Shown: positions 3,512 through 39,140, counted from the stretch's first letter. The stretch is 64,000 nt of DNA from a virus (IMGVR_UViG_3300031111_000001:32001-96000); one strand, 5' to 3'. Numbers and translations: made by a program. The notes: generated by a model from the sequence alone, not told the origin.

Positions 3512-4519
3512 ATGACTGACCTTTCTTCATTCAACGGGTCTGACATCACCTACAGCGCCGATATCAAGGCTCTCAACAATTTGGCCAACTCTAAATGTAG
3601 TGAAGCTGGTGTGACTGGCACCGGCCTTAACAACGCATATTTGGACGTTGGCGACATCATCTACGCTTCACATATCAACCAAATTATCAACGCCTATCGT
3701 CGTGCATGGGACGCATCAAGCAATGCACCCGGAACGAAACAAAGTGCTGTCTCTCAAAATGCCCTTATTGATAACGCTGTGTACTACCATATGTGGTACC
3801 AGTTGAACGATATGGAATTTGGTCTTCCGGTTGTTGAATCTGGGGCCAGCACTACGATTTATGTAATTGAACCAGCAAATGGGCTGTTGGGCACTGGTGG
3901 AAATCTTTCTACCACAAACCGGACCCTTCAGGACCACGGAGTTGCGTCGGTTTCTGATGGATATAGGGTTTACCCAGCAAACACGTATCTTTACAGCTAT
4001 ACGGCTAGAGTTGCCAATGCACTTGAGGGCGCAAGCAAGTGGTGCTACTTGACCCAGCTAAAAATCAACTCATCGTTCTCGAGTGGGCGCATGGTTGCCA
4101 CTTCGTTTTCCATTAGAAATAATCTTGGAAAGCCGCTGTCGATAAACTACACTTGTGGCACGGCGTATGGTGGAATTTTATATTCCATGATTAACTACAT
4201 GCCCAATCGTGATCCGTGCCAGACTTACACAAATATCGACACTGGCCGTTATTGGCCGGTTGGACAAGACCTTTGGCTTGCTGTTTGGTATGATGGAACC
4301 TCCGTCAAGATGGGCTGGAAAACTGGAGCCAAGCCAAAAGCGTGGGGTGACTTCCTTTCCGCAAATAGAAGGGACTCAGGTTGCAATCCTGGTGTTCTGA
4401 ACAATTTGGATTTCACAACCTCCGACAATATTCACGTTGCTAGTGCAAGCGGCACCGGATGTTCGGTTGGGGTCAAATCATACACTCTCGCTAAAAATGT
4501 GGATATCACAGGCTCATAA
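3512..4519 (+). CDS. Putative receptor-binding/tail fibre protein
   Basis: S/T/N/G/Y-rich ORF, visibly more AT-rich than neighbours, at the end of the tail module. Confidence 0.55.
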   Translation: MTDLSSFNGSDITYSADIKALNNLANSKCSEAGVTGTGLNNAYLDVGDIIYASHINQIINAYRRAWDASSNAPGTKQSAVSQNALIDNAVYYHMWYQLNDMEFGLPVVESGASTTIYVIEPANGLLGTGGNLSTTNRTLQDHGVASVSDGYRVYPANTYLYSYTARVANALEGASKWCYLTQLKINSSFSSGRMVATSFSIRNNLGKPLSINYTCGTAYGGILYSMINYMPNRDPCQTYTNIDTGRYWPVGQDLWLAVWYDGTSVKMGWKTGAKPKAWGDFLSANRRDSGCNPGVLNNLDFTTSDNIHVASASGTGCSVGVKSYTLAKNVDITGS

Positions 4520-7314: not shown

Positions 7315-7542
7315 TTTCCTGTCTCACTCCATGGGTGGGGTGGTCCTCTTCGGGGGATCGCCCCTATCCATCCTATCACTTCTGACACGGTTGGGGCCTC
7401 CAATCGTATCATCCTTCGGGTTTCTTCAACCCACCAAAGAAAAAAGTCATTTTTCCTACATAGGGTTTGCAAAGGGTTAAAATCTGAGCTTCAGAAACAA
7501 CAAAACCCCTTGCTTTCACAAGGGGTTACGCTTCCGAGTATT

Positions 7543-7585
7543 TCAGCTTGGGAAGCTGACACTCTACCAACTGAGTTACACCCGC
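7543..7585 (-). other. attP core candidate: 5' half of tRNA-Gly(CCC)
   Basis: Minus strand GCGGGTG-TA-ACTC-AGTTGGTA-GAGT-G-TCAGC-TTCCCAA-GCTGA gives acceptor 5' strand, D arm and anticodon arm; no T arm or 3' acceptor follows; ~195 bp upstream of integrase. Confidence 0.8.
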
Positions 7586-18488: not shown

Positions 18489-19112
18489 CTAGGGGGTCTG
18501 GACGGCCATGGTATTGTCGCCAGTCCCACGGTAAGCCGTGGTGTAAGCCGACATGGTTGCGCCGGAAGCGATCAGGCCACTGCTGCTGCGGTCAAAGGAC
18601 GCGCACTTGGAAGCGTTCAGGCCCAGCTTCGCGCCCTCGGCCTTCCCGTCGATCCCGGCAGCGAGGAAGATGAAGTCCCAATTGTACTTCTCCTTCTGGT
18701 GCCGGACCATCTCGTTGATGATGGTCGCGCCGTACTCGCGAGACTGATTCTCATGGCCGTCCGTGAGGACCACGAACAGGACGCGGGCGGGCCGCTCGTC
18801 TTCGGGCAAAGCGTTCAGTTCGTTGCCCACCCTGGTGATCGTGATGCCAACGGCGTCCAGCAGGGCGGTCATGCCACGGGGCTGGTACGTCTCGCCCAGG
18901 ATCAGGTCGGGGCAGTCCTTGATGGGCTTACGGGTGTAGATCACCTCCACCACATCATCGAACTGCGTGAGGGACAGTTCGGCCTCGTCGGGGCCGGTGC
19001 GCTGTTCGTCGAGGAAACGGTTGAACATCCCCACGGCCTCCGGGGCAATGCTGCCCATGGAGCCAGAACGGTCCAGAATCACGTTGATCAGAGTCATGTC
19101 TTTCATGGTCAA
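18489..19112 (-). CDS. vWA domain protein
   Basis: LDRSGSM MIDAS, GMTALLDAVG, LTDGHENQSREY, WDFIFL. Confidence 0.88.
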   Translation of the reverse strand: MTMKDMTLINVILDRSGSMGSIAPEAVGMFNRFLDEQRTGPDEAELSLTQFDDVVEVIYTRKPIKDCPDLILGETYQPRGMTALLDAVGITITRVGNELNALPEDERPARVLFVVLTDGHENQSREYGATIINEMVRHQKEKYNWDFIFLAAGIDGKAEGAKLGLNASKCASFDRSSSGLIASGATMSAYTTAYRGTGDNTMAVQTP

Positions 19113-20500
19113 TTGTCCATCCAGTTGTACTTGTTATTCATGATGGCCTTGAGCATGACGTTGGTGGGCGTCAGGCTTTCCAGACCCGCTTCCATGATCG
19201 CCTTCATCACCGCCGGGGAGTACCCGCTGACGAGGGCAGCACCAGACTGATGCTGGCGCACGGGACAGTTGCCGGGCCGGGCGTTCAGGTTCCAAAACAC
19301 GACGTTCGGAAGCTCGTAGCCGTACCGGGTAAACTCGGCAGTAGCGTTGGTGAAAAGGTGGTTGCTGCCCGTGACACAGGAATCGAACTCCATGTCGGAG
19401 AAGATGATCAGCGTCCTGGGCATGTCCTCGGCGGGCACCTTATTCCCGACGGCCACCTTGAGGATTTCTCCCATGGCCTTCTCGATGTTGGTGTTCATGC
19501 CCCAATGGGCACGCTCCAGATTCGCCTTTTTGGCAATGATGTCTCGACCATGCAGGGTGTGGAACTGCGGATTCTTAGAAAAGGTCAAGACCAAGTCCTT
19601 GAAGGCCCCGGTCTGCCGGGTGGCGATGAACAACCCCATGGCAACAGAAACGTCGAGGGCAGAGAGATTGGGAGAAATCTGCGCCCACATGGACCCGGAG
19701 ACATCAACCATCGGCAGCACGCCGTTCAGGTTGGCCGGGAACGGAATGGCATCCCACTGCGCCTGGACGGCCTTCCGCTGCGTGCCCTTCAGCACGTCGT
19801 GGGGGAAGATTGCACTGGCGTTGATCTTGGCCTCGCCCTTCTCCAGAGCGTTCAGGTACGCACCGTAGCGGTCACCGCAGTTGCGGGTGAACGCCTTCTG
19901 GTAACGGGCCGACGCGACGGACGGAACGTGGTTGAACTCGATCTTGTCCCACTCCCCGGCGCACATCTTCTGCTCGACGGTGTTGGACAGGCCCACCAGC
20001 AGCTTGCGATACTGCTTGGGGGCCAGACCCATGAACTCGCGCAGGGCCACGGCATTGTCGCCCTTGCGGGGCATCCATTTGGCACACAGGCCGTCACCGG
20101 CTTCCAGTGCCTCGGCGATGAAGGGGAAGATGTCGTGTTCGCGCAGTTCGTCGTCCCCGAAGTGCAGGAGGTCATCCCAACGGCCCACGACGGGCACCAG
20201 CGGGATCAGTTTTTCGACCACTTCGGGCCGCTCATGGCAGAGCGTGTCCATCAGGTTGCGGAAGGTCTGGCGCTCACCGGCACCACCACGGCAGTCTCGC
20301 GCCCAGAGCAGGGTGCGGATGGCCTTGTCCTCGTCCGCGACAAAAGCGTCCCAAAAGGGATCGGAAACGTCCTTGCCACGGCTGGCCCCGATCATGAAGA
20401 ACAGATCGACAAGCGGGTTCAGGGTGGTGGAGAACGCCTCCATTCCGTTGGCAGTGTGGGAGTCACGGATGTTGTTGACGCCATTGACAAACTGGTTCAT
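19109..20500 (-). CDS. DUF2828-family protein (helical domain plus vWA; TROVE/Ro60-like by inference)
   Basis: TANG, LVDLFF, WARDCRGGAGER, GRWDDL, AKWMPR, VPSVA, VDVSGSM, WGMNTN, FSDMEFD, VFWNL, LVSGYS. Confidence 0.85.
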   Translation of the reverse strand: MNQFVNGVNNIRDSHTANGMEAFSTTLNPLVDLFFMIGASRGKDVSDPFWDAFVADEDKAIRTLLWARDCRGGAGERQTFRNLMDTLCHERPEVVEKLIPLVPVVGRWDDLLHFGDDELREHDIFPFIAEALEAGDGLCAKWMPRKGDNAVALREFMGLAPKQYRKLLVGLSNTVEQKMCAGEWDKIEFNHVPSVASARYQKAFTRNCGDRYGAYLNALEKGEAKINASAIFPHDVLKGTQRKAVQAQWDAIPFPANLNGVLPMVDVSGSMWAQISPNLSALDVSVAMGLFIATRQTGAFKDLVLTFSKNPQFHTLHGRDIIAKKANLERAHWGMNTNIEKAMGEILKVAVGNKVPAEDMPRTLIIFSDMEFDSCVTGSNHLFTNATAEFTRYGYELPNVVFWNLNARPGNCPVRQHQSGAALVSGYSPAVMKAIMEAGLESLTPTNVMLKAIMNNKYNWMDN

Positions 20501-20545
20501 CTTGTTTTCCTTTTCAATGGAGGTTGTAATTGCTGAAATGAACCA
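20493..20545 (-). promoter_or_regulatory. Motif unit 0: stem-loop enclosing the RBS and start codon of the DUF2828 gene
   Basis: TGGTTCAT-TTCAGCAA-...AAGGA...-ATGAACCA-GT; the 3' arm of the 8-bp stem is the first 8 nt of the CDS. Confidence 0.75.
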
Positions 20546-20562
20546 TAGACAGTGGACAATAC

Positions 20563-20705
20563 AGAGTGGTGGGTTTGCATACGCGCTCTACCAGACTAAG
20601 CTACATCCCCCTGGCCCGAAGGCTTTAGTGTCGGGAGACGACAGGATTTGAACCTGCGACCTCGTCCTTCATATGGATTGCGGTTTTAGTTGCTGAAACC
20701 ACTCT
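20563..20705 (-). ncRNA. Y-RNA-like unit 1 with permuted tRNA core
   Basis: AGAGTGGT-TTCAGCAA...T arm GCAGG-TTCAAAT-CCTGT, acceptor CGTCTCC/GGGGATG, TA, D arm GCTT-AGTCTGGTA-GAGC...ACCACTCT-GT. Confidence 0.8.
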
Positions 20706-20714
20706 AAAAGAAGC

Positions 20715-20773
20715 GGGATGGATAACTTGAATGAATCCATTTCATTTTGTTGTTTGATTGCTGAAACCATCCC
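20715..20773 (-). ncRNA. Short motif unit 2
   Basis: GGGATGG-T-TTCAGCAA...CCATCCC-GC. Confidence 0.7.
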
Positions 20774-20781
20774 AAACAATA

Positions 20782-20961
20782 CGGAGTGGGTTCTGTAATG
20801 CCCCTAGTGTATGGGGCCTCACCAGTGGCATCGGATGTGCCTTACAGTACGGCAAGCGAACTGGTGCCGGATTCCCACCGGATGCTCAGATTGCATTATG
20901 GATTTCAGTTCTCAAGAGACGTTGTTCCCGTGTTTTCTTGTAGAAGACTGAACCCACTCCG
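20782..20961 (-). ncRNA. Y-RNA-like unit 3 with divergent permuted tRNA core
   Basis: 12-bp closing stem CGGAGTGGGTTC/GAACCCACTCCG; T-loop-like CCGG-TGGGAAT-CCGG, 7-bp stem CACCAGT/ACTGGTG, 2-nt linker, hairpin GCCCC-ATACACTA-GGGGC. Confidence 0.65.
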
Positions 20962-20969
20962 AAAGAAAC

Positions 20970-21099
20970 GGAGTACAGTTTTTGCATTACAAAGGTTCTA
21001 CCAGTTGAACTACCTCCCGGTACTGTGGTTGGTCGGGAGGGGTGGACTTGAACCACCAACCGTTTGTTCCTATTGCGTTTGGCTTGCTGCATGTACTCC
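20970..21099 (-). ncRNA. Y-RNA-like unit 4 with permuted tRNA core
   Basis: GGAGTACA-TGCAGCAA...GGTGG-TTCAAGT-CCACC, CCTCCCG-ACCA..CGGGAGG, TA, GTTC-AACTGGTA-GAAC...TGTACTCC-GT. Confidence 0.82.
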
Positions 21100-21109
21100 A
21101 AAAATTTGT

Positions 21110-21183
21110 CGAGAGGTGCCGGAATTGAACCGACGTTGCCGGGTAAGGCCGCCCAGTATCCTCGCCAACTGGATGAACCTCTC
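21110..21183 (-). tRNA. Non-canonical tRNA / tRNA-like RNA (8-nt anticodon loop, identity undetermined)
   Basis: Acceptor GAGAGGT/ACCTCTC, D arm ATCC..GGAT, anticodon stem CTGGG/CCCGG with loop CGGCCTTA, T arm GTCGG-TTCAATT-CCGGC; 3' end G-ACA instead of CCA. Confidence 0.7.
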
Positions 21184-21188
21184 GATTC

Positions 21189-21264
21189 TGGGGAGATCGG
21201 GCAGAATCGAACTTCCACTCCACGGGTCACAACCGTGTGCTTTGACCATTAAGCTACGAACTCC
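21189..21264 (-). tRNA. tRNA-His(GUG)
   Basis: Cloverleaf with anticodon loop TTGTGAC, G-1:C73 pair and encoded CCA; one mismatch each in acceptor and T stems. Confidence 0.9.
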
Positions 21265-21286: not shown

Positions 21287-21350
21287 AGGATGGGCTACTT
21301 GTCAGGTGGTTAGACCAGAGTTTTTCGCATTTGTTTGCTGAATCCATCCT
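21287..21350 (-). ncRNA. Short motif unit 5
   Basis: AGGATGG-A-TTCAGCAA...CCATCCT-GT. Confidence 0.7.
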
Positions 21351-21358
21351 AGCGATAC

Positions 21359-21414
21359 AGAGTGCTTACGTTTTTGCTTAACAGGCAATTGTTTTTGGTT
21401 GCTGAATGCACTCT
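21359..21414 (-). ncRNA. Short motif unit 6
   Basis: AGAGTGC-A-TTCAGCAA...GCACTCT-GT. Confidence 0.7.
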
Positions 21415-21696
21415 TAAAGATTCGCGGCCATACATCCAGTGGTTCGCGATACCACTACATCATGATGCAGGGAGGGTCCGTTTCCATCACCGTTGTGTCA
21501 CCGGGGCTCTACGGTGCGAGTGGGTGAACTATTCGCACCGTACCGCAAAAGTGGTGCGGCTTGCCTACCGCACTTGCCGGGGCTTAAACCGGATCAGGAT
21601 AATCGGGAGCAGATCGGCCACATGCGCGGGCCATAGCGTTCAGCTTTCAACTTCCTTTTGCTGCTCAACCGATTTTCGTTTACTCCTTTCATCGAG

Positions 21697-21726
21697 TTAG
21701 TCGTACCGACGCCCGTGTCTGGATGA
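21697..21726 (-). promoter_or_regulatory. Phage-type (ECF-like) promoter motif, copy upstream of the RNA array
   Basis: TCATCC-AGACACG(N17 spacer)-CGACTAA; 30-mer identical to 25072-25101. Confidence 0.75.
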
Positions 21727-25071: not shown

Positions 25072-25101
25072 TTAGTCGTACCGACGCCCGTGTCTGGATG
25101 A
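25072..25101 (-). promoter_or_regulatory. Phage-type (ECF-like) promoter motif
   Basis: TCATCC-N17-CGACTAA, intergenic. Confidence 0.75.
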
Positions 25102-33623: not shown

Positions 33624-33653
33624 TTAGTCGTTTGGTCACCCGTGTCTGGATGA
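33624..33653 (-). promoter_or_regulatory. Phage-type (ECF-like) promoter motif
   Basis: TCATCC-AGACACG..-CGACTAA with 17-nt spacer, right after the dnaE stop. Confidence 0.75.
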
Positions 33654-38887: not shown

Positions 38888-38917
38888 TTAGTCGGTCTGG
38901 GCTACGTGTCTGGATGA
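38888..38917 (-). promoter_or_regulatory. Phage-type promoter motif (leftward)
   Basis: TCATCC-AGACACG..-CGACTAA with 17-nt spacer. Confidence 0.75.
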
Positions 38918-39110: not shown

Positions 39111-39140
39111 TCATCCAGACACGGGACTCGCTTCGTCCAA
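39111..39140 (+). promoter_or_regulatory. Phage-type promoter motif (rightward)
   Basis: TCATCC-AGACACG..-CGTCCAA with 17-nt spacer. Confidence 0.72.

What the first reader, a model, noticed from the sequence alone, without database searches (positions are those of the whole stretch)
20493..20545. The same RNA motif sequesters the start codon of the DUF2828 gene (autoregulation)
Seen: the last unit reads TGGTTCAT-TTCAGCAA-TTACAACCTCCATTGAAAAGGAAAACAAG-ATGAACCA-GT. Its 3' arm is the ATG plus the next 5 nt of the CDS, the RBS sits in the loop, and the conserved GT after the stem is supplied by coding sequence. Inference: free protein binds its own mRNA leader through the same handle and blocks translation, matching protein level to the RNA units. 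This is the strongest internal evidence that the motif's partner is this protein.
Basis: partly seen in the sequence, partly recalled or inferred. Interest (0 to 1): 0.85.

Follow-up and report, generated by a model that had tools for sequence, protein, structure and literature searches.

The report
RNA handle covering Ro60-like gene's start
In this marine-sediment phage, the message for a Ro60-shaped RNA-binding protein folds its own start codon into a copy of the short "handle" carried by the small RNAs encoded just upstream, so the protein probably senses and limits its own synthesis, although no binding has been shown.

Summary
On the minus strand, 20545-20493 forms an 8-bp stem (10 bp in the energy minimum). 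Its 5' arm is followed by UU and CAGCAA. The Shine-Dalgarno (SD) sequence lies in the 29-nt loop. The 3' arm is the AUG plus 5 nt of the DUF2828 gene, and the GU tail comes from codons 3-4.

A covariance model trained only on units from other genomes finds four hits in the whole 114.5-kb phage. All four lie in this array, and this unit scores best (E 8e-10).

The protein model matches Ro60 structures over its full length. In 200 homologous loci, 172 model hits lie on the gene's strand and none on the other.

- In at least 47 of 117 non-redundant loci, a handle ends 10-40 nt before the ATG, right against the SD.
- Overlap with the ATG is rare. Besides this phage, one locus abuts the ATG and one encloses the SD and ATG.
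- No close relatives exist, so covariation cannot be tested here. No RNA data exist, and binding is untested.

The most likely role is a translational operator that mimics the partner RNA (about 45%). I found neither the RNA family nor this operator in Rfam or the papers searched. Earlier notes of this scan report leader handles next to this gene family in other genomes.

The parts
20538..20545 (-). U7 5' arm (UGGUUCAU)
   Evidence: Perfect complement of 20493-20500. Paired in the MFE and centroid structures.
20530..20537 (-). Spacer UU plus the conserved CAGCAA motif
   Evidence: Exact TTCAGCAA. Aligned to the invariant CAGCAA columns of model R1.
20501..20529 (-). A-rich 29-nt loop holding the Shine-Dalgarno AAGGA (20508-20512)
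   Evidence: Read directly from the sequence. Mean pairing probability of -16..-4 is 0.25.
20493..20500 (-). U7 3' arm: start codon AUG plus the next 5 nt (codons 1-3) of the DUF2828 gene
   Evidence: The start is supported by aligned homologue starts.
20491..20492 (-). GU tail of the handle, supplied by the third base of codon 3 and the first base of codon 4
   Evidence: A G tail follows 270 of 468 candidate units on the gene strand, against 19 of 196 on the other strand.
19109..20500 (-). DUF2828/DUF7788 gene, 463 aa, Ro60-like ring plus vWA fold
   Evidence: Pfam. PHROG 850 'RNA-binding protein'. Model pLDDT 90.3. The 12 best PDB fold matches are all Ro60 or TROVE-domain entries.
20563..20705 (-). 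U6: handle unit with a tRNA-like (YrlA-type) cargo, ending 62 nt before the ATG
   Evidence: Rfam YrlA 29 bits, E 0.001, below the gathering score.
20715..20773 (-). U5: cargo-less handle unit
   Evidence: R1 37.1 bits, E 4e-8.
20783..20960 (-). U4: variant unit with an 11-bp closing stem and UUCAGUCUU in place of CAGCAA
   Evidence: Fold -65.5 kcal/mol, z = -4.1.
20970..21099 (-). U3: handle unit (UGCAGCAA) with a tRNA-like cargo ending in an internal CCA
   Evidence: Rfam YrlA 28.9 bits, E 0.0011.
21287..21350 (-). U2: cargo-less handle unit
   Evidence: R1 36 bits, E 8e-8.
21359..21414 (-). U1: cargo-less handle unit
   Evidence: R1 38.2 bits. Rfam Dicty_Class_I_RNA 25.2 bits, below the gathering score.
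21189..21263 (-). tRNA-His inside the array
   Evidence: ARAGORN. Rfam tRNA 55 bits.
21714..21726 (-). Phage-specific 13-mer, promoter-like, upstream of the array. Probable start of the transcription unit that runs through U1-U7 into the gene (inferred).
   Evidence: Five exact copies in the window. No terminator-like site lies on the minus strand between it and the gene.

Best explanation
U7 is a cargo-less copy of the handle shared by the phage's small RNAs: a closing stem, unpaired CAGCAA and a 3' GU. It is built into the translation start region of the gene for the Ro60-like DUF2828 protein.

Proposed mechanism (inferred): the array and the gene are transcribed together. Free protein binds the handle formed by the leader and codons 1-3. 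This clamps the AUG into the stem and covers the SD in the loop, so the 30S subunit cannot start. When U1-U6 are abundant they soak up the protein, and the 8-10 bp stem alone is weak enough to be opened. Protein output then follows the pool of partner RNAs.

Shown: the structure, family membership, the Ro60 fold, and the recurrence of handles at this gene's start region in other phages. Inferred: binding, repression and titration.
For: - Family membership. A model trained only on foreign units (A2, R1) ranks U7 first of four hits in the window and in the complete genome, at 42.9 bits and E 8e-10. Its UGG...CCA|GU closure recurs in 10 other units.
- Geometry. The AUG lies in the 3' arm, the SD in the loop, and the GU tail comes from coding sequence. 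The stem holds in a longer context. P(AUG paired) is 0.99 while the SD is mostly open.
- Protein. The top 12 fold matches are Ro60 or TROVE-domain entries over the full length, E 1e-10 to 6e-5, TM 0.45-0.62.
- Link between RNA and gene. 172 R1 hits lie on the gene strand and 0 on the other in 200 loci.
- Position. In at least 47 of 117 loci a unit ends 10-40 nt before the ATG, and in 37 of these the SD starts 1-6 nt after the arm.
- Mini-handles. Units of 40 nt or less are at the leader in 9 of 47 cases against 4 of 217 elsewhere, Fisher p = 4e-5, not corrected for relatedness.
- Units that cannot be cut out without destroying the message. L189 abuts the AUG with the SD in its loop. L114 encloses SD and AUG with its 3' arm in codons 10-12, E 2.5e-4.
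- Synonymous choices. L165 encodes the same MNQF start with AAU CAA and keeps a separate upstream handle. Here AAC CAG gives a G-C pair and the G tail. This is weak evidence, because GC content could explain it too.
Against: - There are no binding, expression or end-mapping data. Only the source DNA run holds the sequence.
- No relative is closer than 54% identity, so U7 has no covariation support.
- Overlap with the AUG is rare among about 159 loci, and relaxed scans for spanning stems are at background.
- Units in arrays sit only about 9-12 nt apart, so a handle close to an SD in other phages could partly reflect dense packing.
- The fold z-score is only -2.1, and four other start regions in the genome show equal AUG pairing.
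- The A-rich leader itself adds to the model score.
Confidence: 0.45

Rival explanations
1. Processing competition. U7 is one more small-RNA gene that overlaps the gene's start. Maturation of the unit (cleavage or trimming at the handle ends) destroys the message, and only unprocessed read-through transcripts are translated. Output is then set by RNA processing, not by feedback from the protein.
For: U7 scores like the free-standing cargo-less units U1, U2 and U5. The array is densely packed, with typical gaps of 9-12 nt. No promoter-like site or room for one lies between U6 and U7. In other loci, cutting after the handle would leave the SD at the very 5' end of the message.
Against: An RNA whose loop is an SD and whose arm is the AUG of its partner's gene is an odd coincidence for a plain small-RNA gene. 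Mini-handles without cargo concentrate at the leader. Three lineages use coding or SD sequence as part of the unit.
Confidence: 0.22
2. Positive cis role. The handle recruits the new protein to its own message. This could protect the processed 5' end from decay, or let the protein load onto RNA where it is made, and so would raise expression rather than lower it.
For: In most relatives the handle lies 5' of the SD, where it would be the 5'-terminal stem of the processed message. From general knowledge, 5' stem-loops stabilise bacterial mRNAs.
Against: Here the AUG itself is paired in the handle. A bound ring protein the size of Ro60 would be expected to block rather than help initiation.
Confidence: 0.13
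3. Protein-independent attenuator or decaying relic. The hairpin only damps translation constitutively, or it is what remains of an upstream unit after a deletion and has no function.
For: The loop holds CAACCU, which matches the 3' arms of leader handles in relatives (L003, L005, L008, L165). This suggests a rearranged ancestor. The stem is modest, at -10.4 kcal/mol. No relatives exist to show that it is conserved.
Against: All handle features are intact at once: a perfect 8-bp stem, exact TTCAGCAA, correct spacing and the GU tail. It is the best model score in the genome. A relic would be expected to have lost some of them.
Confidence: 0.15

Closest known systems
Ro60 (Rsr/TROVE) with Y RNAs: bacterial and mycobacteriophage YrlA/YrlB (Chen et al. 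2014, PMC4201824; Rfam RF02553) and Thermus phage phiLo Ro60 with Yrl1/Yrl2 (PMC12135203)
   Same: A ring-plus-vWA protein fold. Small RNAs are encoded beside the gene on the same strand. Some carry tRNA-like modules: U3 and U6 hit YrlA at E 0.001. A terminal stem is the presumed protein-binding site.
   Different: The protein hits Pfam DUF2828/DUF7788, with no TROVE match reported among the Pfam hits, and is 12-17% identical to solved Ro60s. The stem carries an unpaired CAGCAA and a 3' G(U) rather than the Y-RNA helix. YrlA scores stay far below the gathering score (29 against 69). I found no report of a Ro60 gene whose start codon lies in a Y-RNA-like handle.
Translational operators that mimic the protein's main RNA target: MS2/R17 coat protein on the replicase start hairpin, E. 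coli ribosomal-protein operators, ThrRS on thrS, T4 RegA and gp32, U1A on its own pre-mRNA (from general knowledge, not tested here)
   Same: A copy of the protein's RNA target sits on the SD or AUG of its own message. As in the MS2 replicase operator, the start codon is part of the hairpin. The expected logic is titration by the real target.
   Different: Binding and repression are not shown here. The protein family and its RNA target are themselves uncharacterised. Part of the operator arm is coding sequence.
Class I RNAs of dictyostelid amoebae (Kjellin et al. 2021, PMC7919456; Rfam RF01414)
   Same: A short stem joins the 5' and 3' ends. A conserved unpaired motif ending in CAGCAA follows the 5' arm. 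The 3' end is CUGU. The rest is variable and A-rich, and the length is 42-65 nt. U1 and L018:889-943 hit RF01414.
   Different: Scores of 25-29 bits are below the gathering score of 41.5, and U7 gives no hit. Class I RNAs are reported as unique to Dictyostelia and bind the RRM protein Rnp1A. No link to a DUF2828 protein is published, and I did not test one.

Membership tests
CAGCAA-handle RNAs that accompany DUF2828 genes (not in Rfam; defined here by model R1) | Closing stem of 6-8 bp joining the ends of the unit | tested here: met
   8 perfect pairs, 10 in the MFE. The stem covaries in the family, though on units that were picked for pairing.
CAGCAA-handle RNAs that accompany DUF2828 genes (not in Rfam; defined here by model R1) | Spacer of 1-4 nt, then unpaired C(A/C/G)GCAA after the 5' arm, and G(U/A) after the 3' arm | tested here: met
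   UU + CAGCAA and GU.
CAGCAA-handle RNAs that accompany DUF2828 genes (not in Rfam; defined here by model R1) | Significant score against a model that does not include this genome | tested here: met
   42.9 bits, E 7.7e-10, top hit of the window and of the genome.
CAGCAA-handle RNAs that accompany DUF2828 genes (not in Rfam; defined here by model R1) | Same strand as, and next to, a DUF2828 gene | tested here: met
   It overlaps the gene's start. Across loci, 172 hits lie on the gene strand and 0 on the other.
YrlA, Rfam RF02553 | Score at or above the gathering score of 69 bits, with a tRNA-like domain plus the Rsr-binding stem | tested here: not met
   U7 gives no hit. U3 and U6 reach 29 bits.
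Dicty_Class_I_RNA, Rfam RF01414 | Score at or above the gathering score of 41.5 bits | tested here: not met
   U7 gives no hit. U1 reaches 25.2 bits and L018:889-943 reaches 28.6 bits.
Ro60/TROVE proteins | HEAT-repeat ring closed by a vWA domain | tested here: met
   Model pLDDT 90.3, pTM 0.88. Ro60 chains from phage phiLo, Xenopus, Deinococcus and human are ranks 1-13, aligned over about 500 columns.
Ro60/TROVE proteins | Sequence match to the Pfam TROVE domain or to a solved Ro60 | tested here: not met
   Pfam gives DUF7788 and DUF2828 only. phmmer against PDB sequences finds nothing relevant.
Ro60/TROVE proteins | Binds the stem of its neighbouring small RNAs | not testable with these tools
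   No tool here predicts RNA-protein complexes, and no RNA data exist.
Autoregulatory translational operator by target mimicry | The leader element resembles the protein's main RNA target and overlaps the SD or AUG | tested here: met
Autoregulatory translational operator by target mimicry | The protein binds the leader and represses its own translation | not testable with these tools
   Needs binding, toeprint and reporter assays.

The most novel reading that the evidence does not exclude
Placing a partner-RNA handle on the translation start is a general feedback device of a widespread, unpublished Ro60-like particle made of DUF2828 protein and CAGCAA-handle RNAs. It appears in three geometries: against the SD, over the AUG as here, and around both. 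These handles share their architecture with the unexplained Class I RNAs of social amoebae. The 53-nt element here would then be a natural minimal binding site that defines what this protein family recognises.
Probability: 0.3. Interest if true: 0.75.

Novelty: new variant of a known kind. Interest (0 to 1): 0.6.

Why it matters
DUF2828 proteins occur in at least 710 deposited phage genomes, including Felix O1-like, T4-like, jumbo, Listeria P100-like, Staphylococcus and mycobacterial phages. The five papers that mention DUF2828 say nothing about its function.

If the protein binds this 53-nt leader, the element gives three things. It is a minimal, cargo-free RNA ligand for binding and structural work. 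It is a simple reporter assay for the protein-RNA pairing that so far rests on co-occurrence. And it would be, as far as I found, the first case of a Ro60-type protein controlling its own translation through a mimic of its Y-like RNA.

It also shows that the handle, and not the tRNA-like cargo, is the part the protein gene keeps next to itself.

Tried and rejected
- Close relatives for covariation. blastn of the array against deposited phages found nothing.
- Expression. No RNA holder is listed; only the probable source DNA run, a marine sediment metagenome, holds the stretch.
- Relaxed scans for stems that span or end on the ATG. They gave 7 of 117 and 9 of 159 loci, against 0-4 and 1-19 at control offsets, which is background.
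- L025 looked like a spanning case. Its true start is a downstream ATG behind an ordinary leader handle. L176 was resolved the same way.
- A possible extra unit at about 21676-21608 was rejected. There CAGCAA lies inside a predicted stem, and the 284-nt stretch folds no better than shuffles, z = -0.44.
- NCBIfam gave no hit, and a PDB sequence search gave nothing relevant.
- The downstream vWA gene is not a conserved partner: 2 of 117 loci.
- AUG sequestration is not exceptional on energy alone. It ranks 5th of 75, and the total energy is weaker than the genome mean.
- Pair counts on A2 are partly circular, because the units were chosen for pairing.

Full report
**What is there.** The window lies in a complete 114.5-kb phage genome with direct terminal repeats, from a marine sediment metagenome. 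The ORF at 19109-20500 (minus strand, 463 aa) matches Pfam DUF7788 (E 1e-45) and DUF2828 (E 2e-23), and PHROG 850 'RNA-binding protein'. Upstream on the same strand lies an array of units. Each has a 7-8 nt 5' arm, a 2-3 nt spacer, CAGCAA, a variable inner part, the complementary 3' arm and then G(U):
- U1 21414-21359
- U2 21350-21287
- U3 21099-20970
- U5 20773-20715
- U6 20705-20563
- U7 20545-20493

U4 (20960-20783) is a variant without CAGCAA. A tRNA-His and a tRNA-like element sit between U2 and U3.

**The observation.** Its 8-nt 5' arm is followed by UU and CAGCAA. A 29-nt A-rich loop holds the SD AAGGA, 7 nt before the AUG. The 3' arm is the AUG plus the next five bases, and the GU tail comes from codons 3-4. 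RNAfold keeps the stem in 57-nt and 93-nt contexts and extends it to 10 bp, at -10.4 kcal/mol and z = -2.1. ATG 20500 is the real start. It is the first start of the ORF, the starts of 80 homologues fall within about +/-5 codons of it (+/-2 for most), and residues 4, 7, 16 and 18 are conserved in the family.

**Is U7 a family member or a chance hairpin?** I collected handle units from homologous loci with a pairing script. I aligned 27 short units, none from this genome (A2), and built covariance model R1 from them. R1 finds four hits in the 64-kb window and the same four in the whole genome, all in the array. U7 is the best at 42.9 bits and E 7.7e-10, ahead of U1, U5 and U2. Its unusual closure, UGG...CCA followed by GU, is a recurrent minor variant seen in 10 other units. 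Exact TTCAGCAA occurs 7 times in the window, 5 of them in this 900-nt stretch and all on the minus strand.

**The partner.** An AlphaFold model built on 54 homologues has pLDDT 90.3 and pTM 0.88. Its twelve best PDB fold matches are all Ro60 or TROVE-domain entries: phage phiLo, Xenopus, Deinococcus Rsr and human. They align over about 500 columns with E from 1e-10 to 6e-5, TM 0.45-0.62 and 12-17% identity. Plain vWA domains follow. Sequence searches do not reach TROVE.

The RNA family travels with the gene. In 200 homologous loci from viral, metagenome and genome collections, R1 gives 78 + 94 = 172 hits at E <= 0.01 and 0.05, all on the gene's strand and none on the other. With the script, 270 of 468 candidate units on the gene strand end in G, against 19 of 196 on the opposite strand. 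U3 and U6 carry tRNA-like modules that hit Rfam YrlA at E 0.001, far below the gathering score.

**Do homologues put a handle on their start region?** Mostly they put it beside the start, not on it.
- Of 117 non-redundant loci, 71 have a unit within 400 nt upstream. In 47 of these the last unit ends 10-40 nt before the ATG, and in 37 the SD-like run begins 1-6 nt after the 3' arm. This is a lower bound. Several MAG loci show the same ...CCUG-SD arrangement with CAGCAU or CAGCAC cores that my script missed.
- Units of 40 nt or less, which are handle-only, sit at the leader in 9 of 47 cases against 4 of 217 elsewhere. The odds ratio is 12.6 and p = 4e-5, not corrected for relatedness.
- Two other loci use the start region itself. 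In L189 the fourth unit of an array has the SD in its loop and ends GUU directly before the AUG (R1 30.3 bits). In L114 the 5' arm and CAGCAA precede the SD, and the 3' arm lies in codons 10-12, so SD and AUG sit in the loop (22.4 bits, E 2.5e-4 in that search).
- Overlap of the AUG by the 3' arm was found only here. Looser scans for it are at background.

**Caveats.**
- Units in arrays are typically 9-12 nt apart, so nearness to an SD could partly reflect packing. That argument does not cover U7, L189 or L114, which cannot be cut out without destroying the message.
- On energy alone the hairpin is ordinary. P(AUG paired) is 0.99 with the SD mostly open, but this ranks 5th of 75 start regions, and the total energy is weaker than the genome mean.
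- There are no RNA data.

**Mechanism.** A phage-specific 13-mer with five exact copies lies at 21714-21726. No terminator-like site follows it on the minus strand, and there is no room for a promoter between U6 and U7. The array and the gene are therefore probably one transcript (inferred).

The best-supported reading (about 45%) is a translational operator that works by mimicry. Free Ro60-like protein binds the handle made of leader plus codons 1-3 and blocks initiation, and U1-U6 compete for the protein. The rivals are:
- competition between unit processing and translation (about 22%);
- a positive cis role in stability or assembly (about 13%);
- a protein-independent attenuator or a relic (about 15%).

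Two details hint at how U7 arose. Its loop holds CAACCU, which matches the 3' arms of leader handles in relatives. And L165 encodes the same MNQF start with AAU CAA behind a separate handle, whereas here AAC CAG supplies a G-C pair and the G tail. Both are weak, after-the-fact observations.

**Comparison with what is known.** The system works like Ro60 with Y RNAs (PMC4201824, PMC12135203). It fails the sequence-based membership tests for TROVE and YrlA. The handle has the architecture of Dictyostelium Class I RNAs: a 6-bp terminal stem, a motif ending in CAGCAA, and a CUGU 3' end (PMC7919456). However, it scores only 25-29 bits against RF01414, whose gathering score is 41.5.

The proposed control resembles classical operators such as the MS2 coat protein on the replicase start hairpin, ribosomal proteins on their own messages, or U1A on its own pre-mRNA (general knowledge). 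The five papers that mention DUF2828 say nothing about its function. A 2025 study of a P100-like Listeria phage proposed that abundant transcripts upstream of its Rsr-like gene might be Y RNAs (PMC12282133). R1 finds two units at the matching place in the related phage LMTA-148.

**Earlier notes of this scan.** They report the same protein-RNA pairing in many other genomes, and leader handles next to the gene in several. I treated them as leads and retested the claims here.

**Verdict.** This is a new variant of a known kind of control, attached to an RNA-protein family that I found in neither Rfam nor the literature searched.

Noticed in passing
L114:2471-2539: A handle that encloses the whole start region. 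The 5' arm and CAGCAA come right after the previous ORF's stop, then SD and AUG, and the 3' arm plus G lies in codons 10-12 of the DUF2828 gene. R1 scores it 22.4 bits, E 2.5e-4. No relatives were available to test conservation.
   Followed up: partly
L189:1736-2000: Four tandem units directly upstream of the gene on a 178-kb contig binned as Cellvibrionaceae. The last has the SD in its loop and ends GUU immediately before the AUG.
   Followed up: partly
window 20563-20705 and 20970-21099 (-): U6 and U3 carry tRNA-like modules in permuted order (T arm, 3' acceptor strand, linker, 5' acceptor strand, D arm). They hit Rfam YrlA at 29 bits, E 0.001. U3 has an internal CCA after its acceptor strand.
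   Followed up: partly
window 21110-21184 (-): A tRNA-shaped element next to tRNA-His that ARAGORN does not call. Its only Rfam match is a weak tRNA-Sec hit (19.8 bits, E 0.86).
   Followed up: no
window 20783-20960 (-): U4 has an 11-bp closing stem and a GU tail but UUCAGUCUU in place of CAGCAA. It folds far better than shuffles (z = -4.1). R1 does not find it.
   Followed up: partly
window 21714-21726, 25089-25101, 33641-33653, 38905-38917 (-) and 39111-39123 (+): Five exact copies of one 13-mer at gene boundaries. This is probably a phage-specific promoter element, and one copy heads the RNA array.
   Followed up: partly
window 21417-21700 (-): About 280 nt of GC-rich non-coding sequence between the promoter-like motif and U1. 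It has no Rfam match and no unusual fold (z = -0.44). Its role is unknown.
   Followed up: partly
L162:2161-2221 and 2251-2311 (Listeria phage LMTA-148): Two R1 hits (E 3e-7 and 1e-5) lie between gp066 and the DUF2828 gene. This is the region type where a 2025 paper on a P100-like phage reports very abundant unexplained transcripts upstream of its Rsr-like gene (PMC12282133). RtcB-type ligase genes lie downstream.
   Followed up: partly
L161:3715-3786 and 3882-3944 (Escherichia phage adrianh, Felixounavirus): Two weak R1 hits (E about 0.001-0.002) between tRNA genes just downstream of the DUF2828 gene. This lineage has a sigma-70-like promoter and no leader handle.
   Followed up: no
window 18489-19112 (-): A 207-aa vWA-domain gene starts within 5 nt of the DUF2828 stop, so any control of DUF2828 translation could pass on to it. 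It accompanies the gene in only 2 of 117 loci.
   Followed up: yes
window 7533-7585 (-): A 53-nt Rfam tRNA match just above the gathering score (30.8 bits) that ARAGORN does not call.
   Followed up: no
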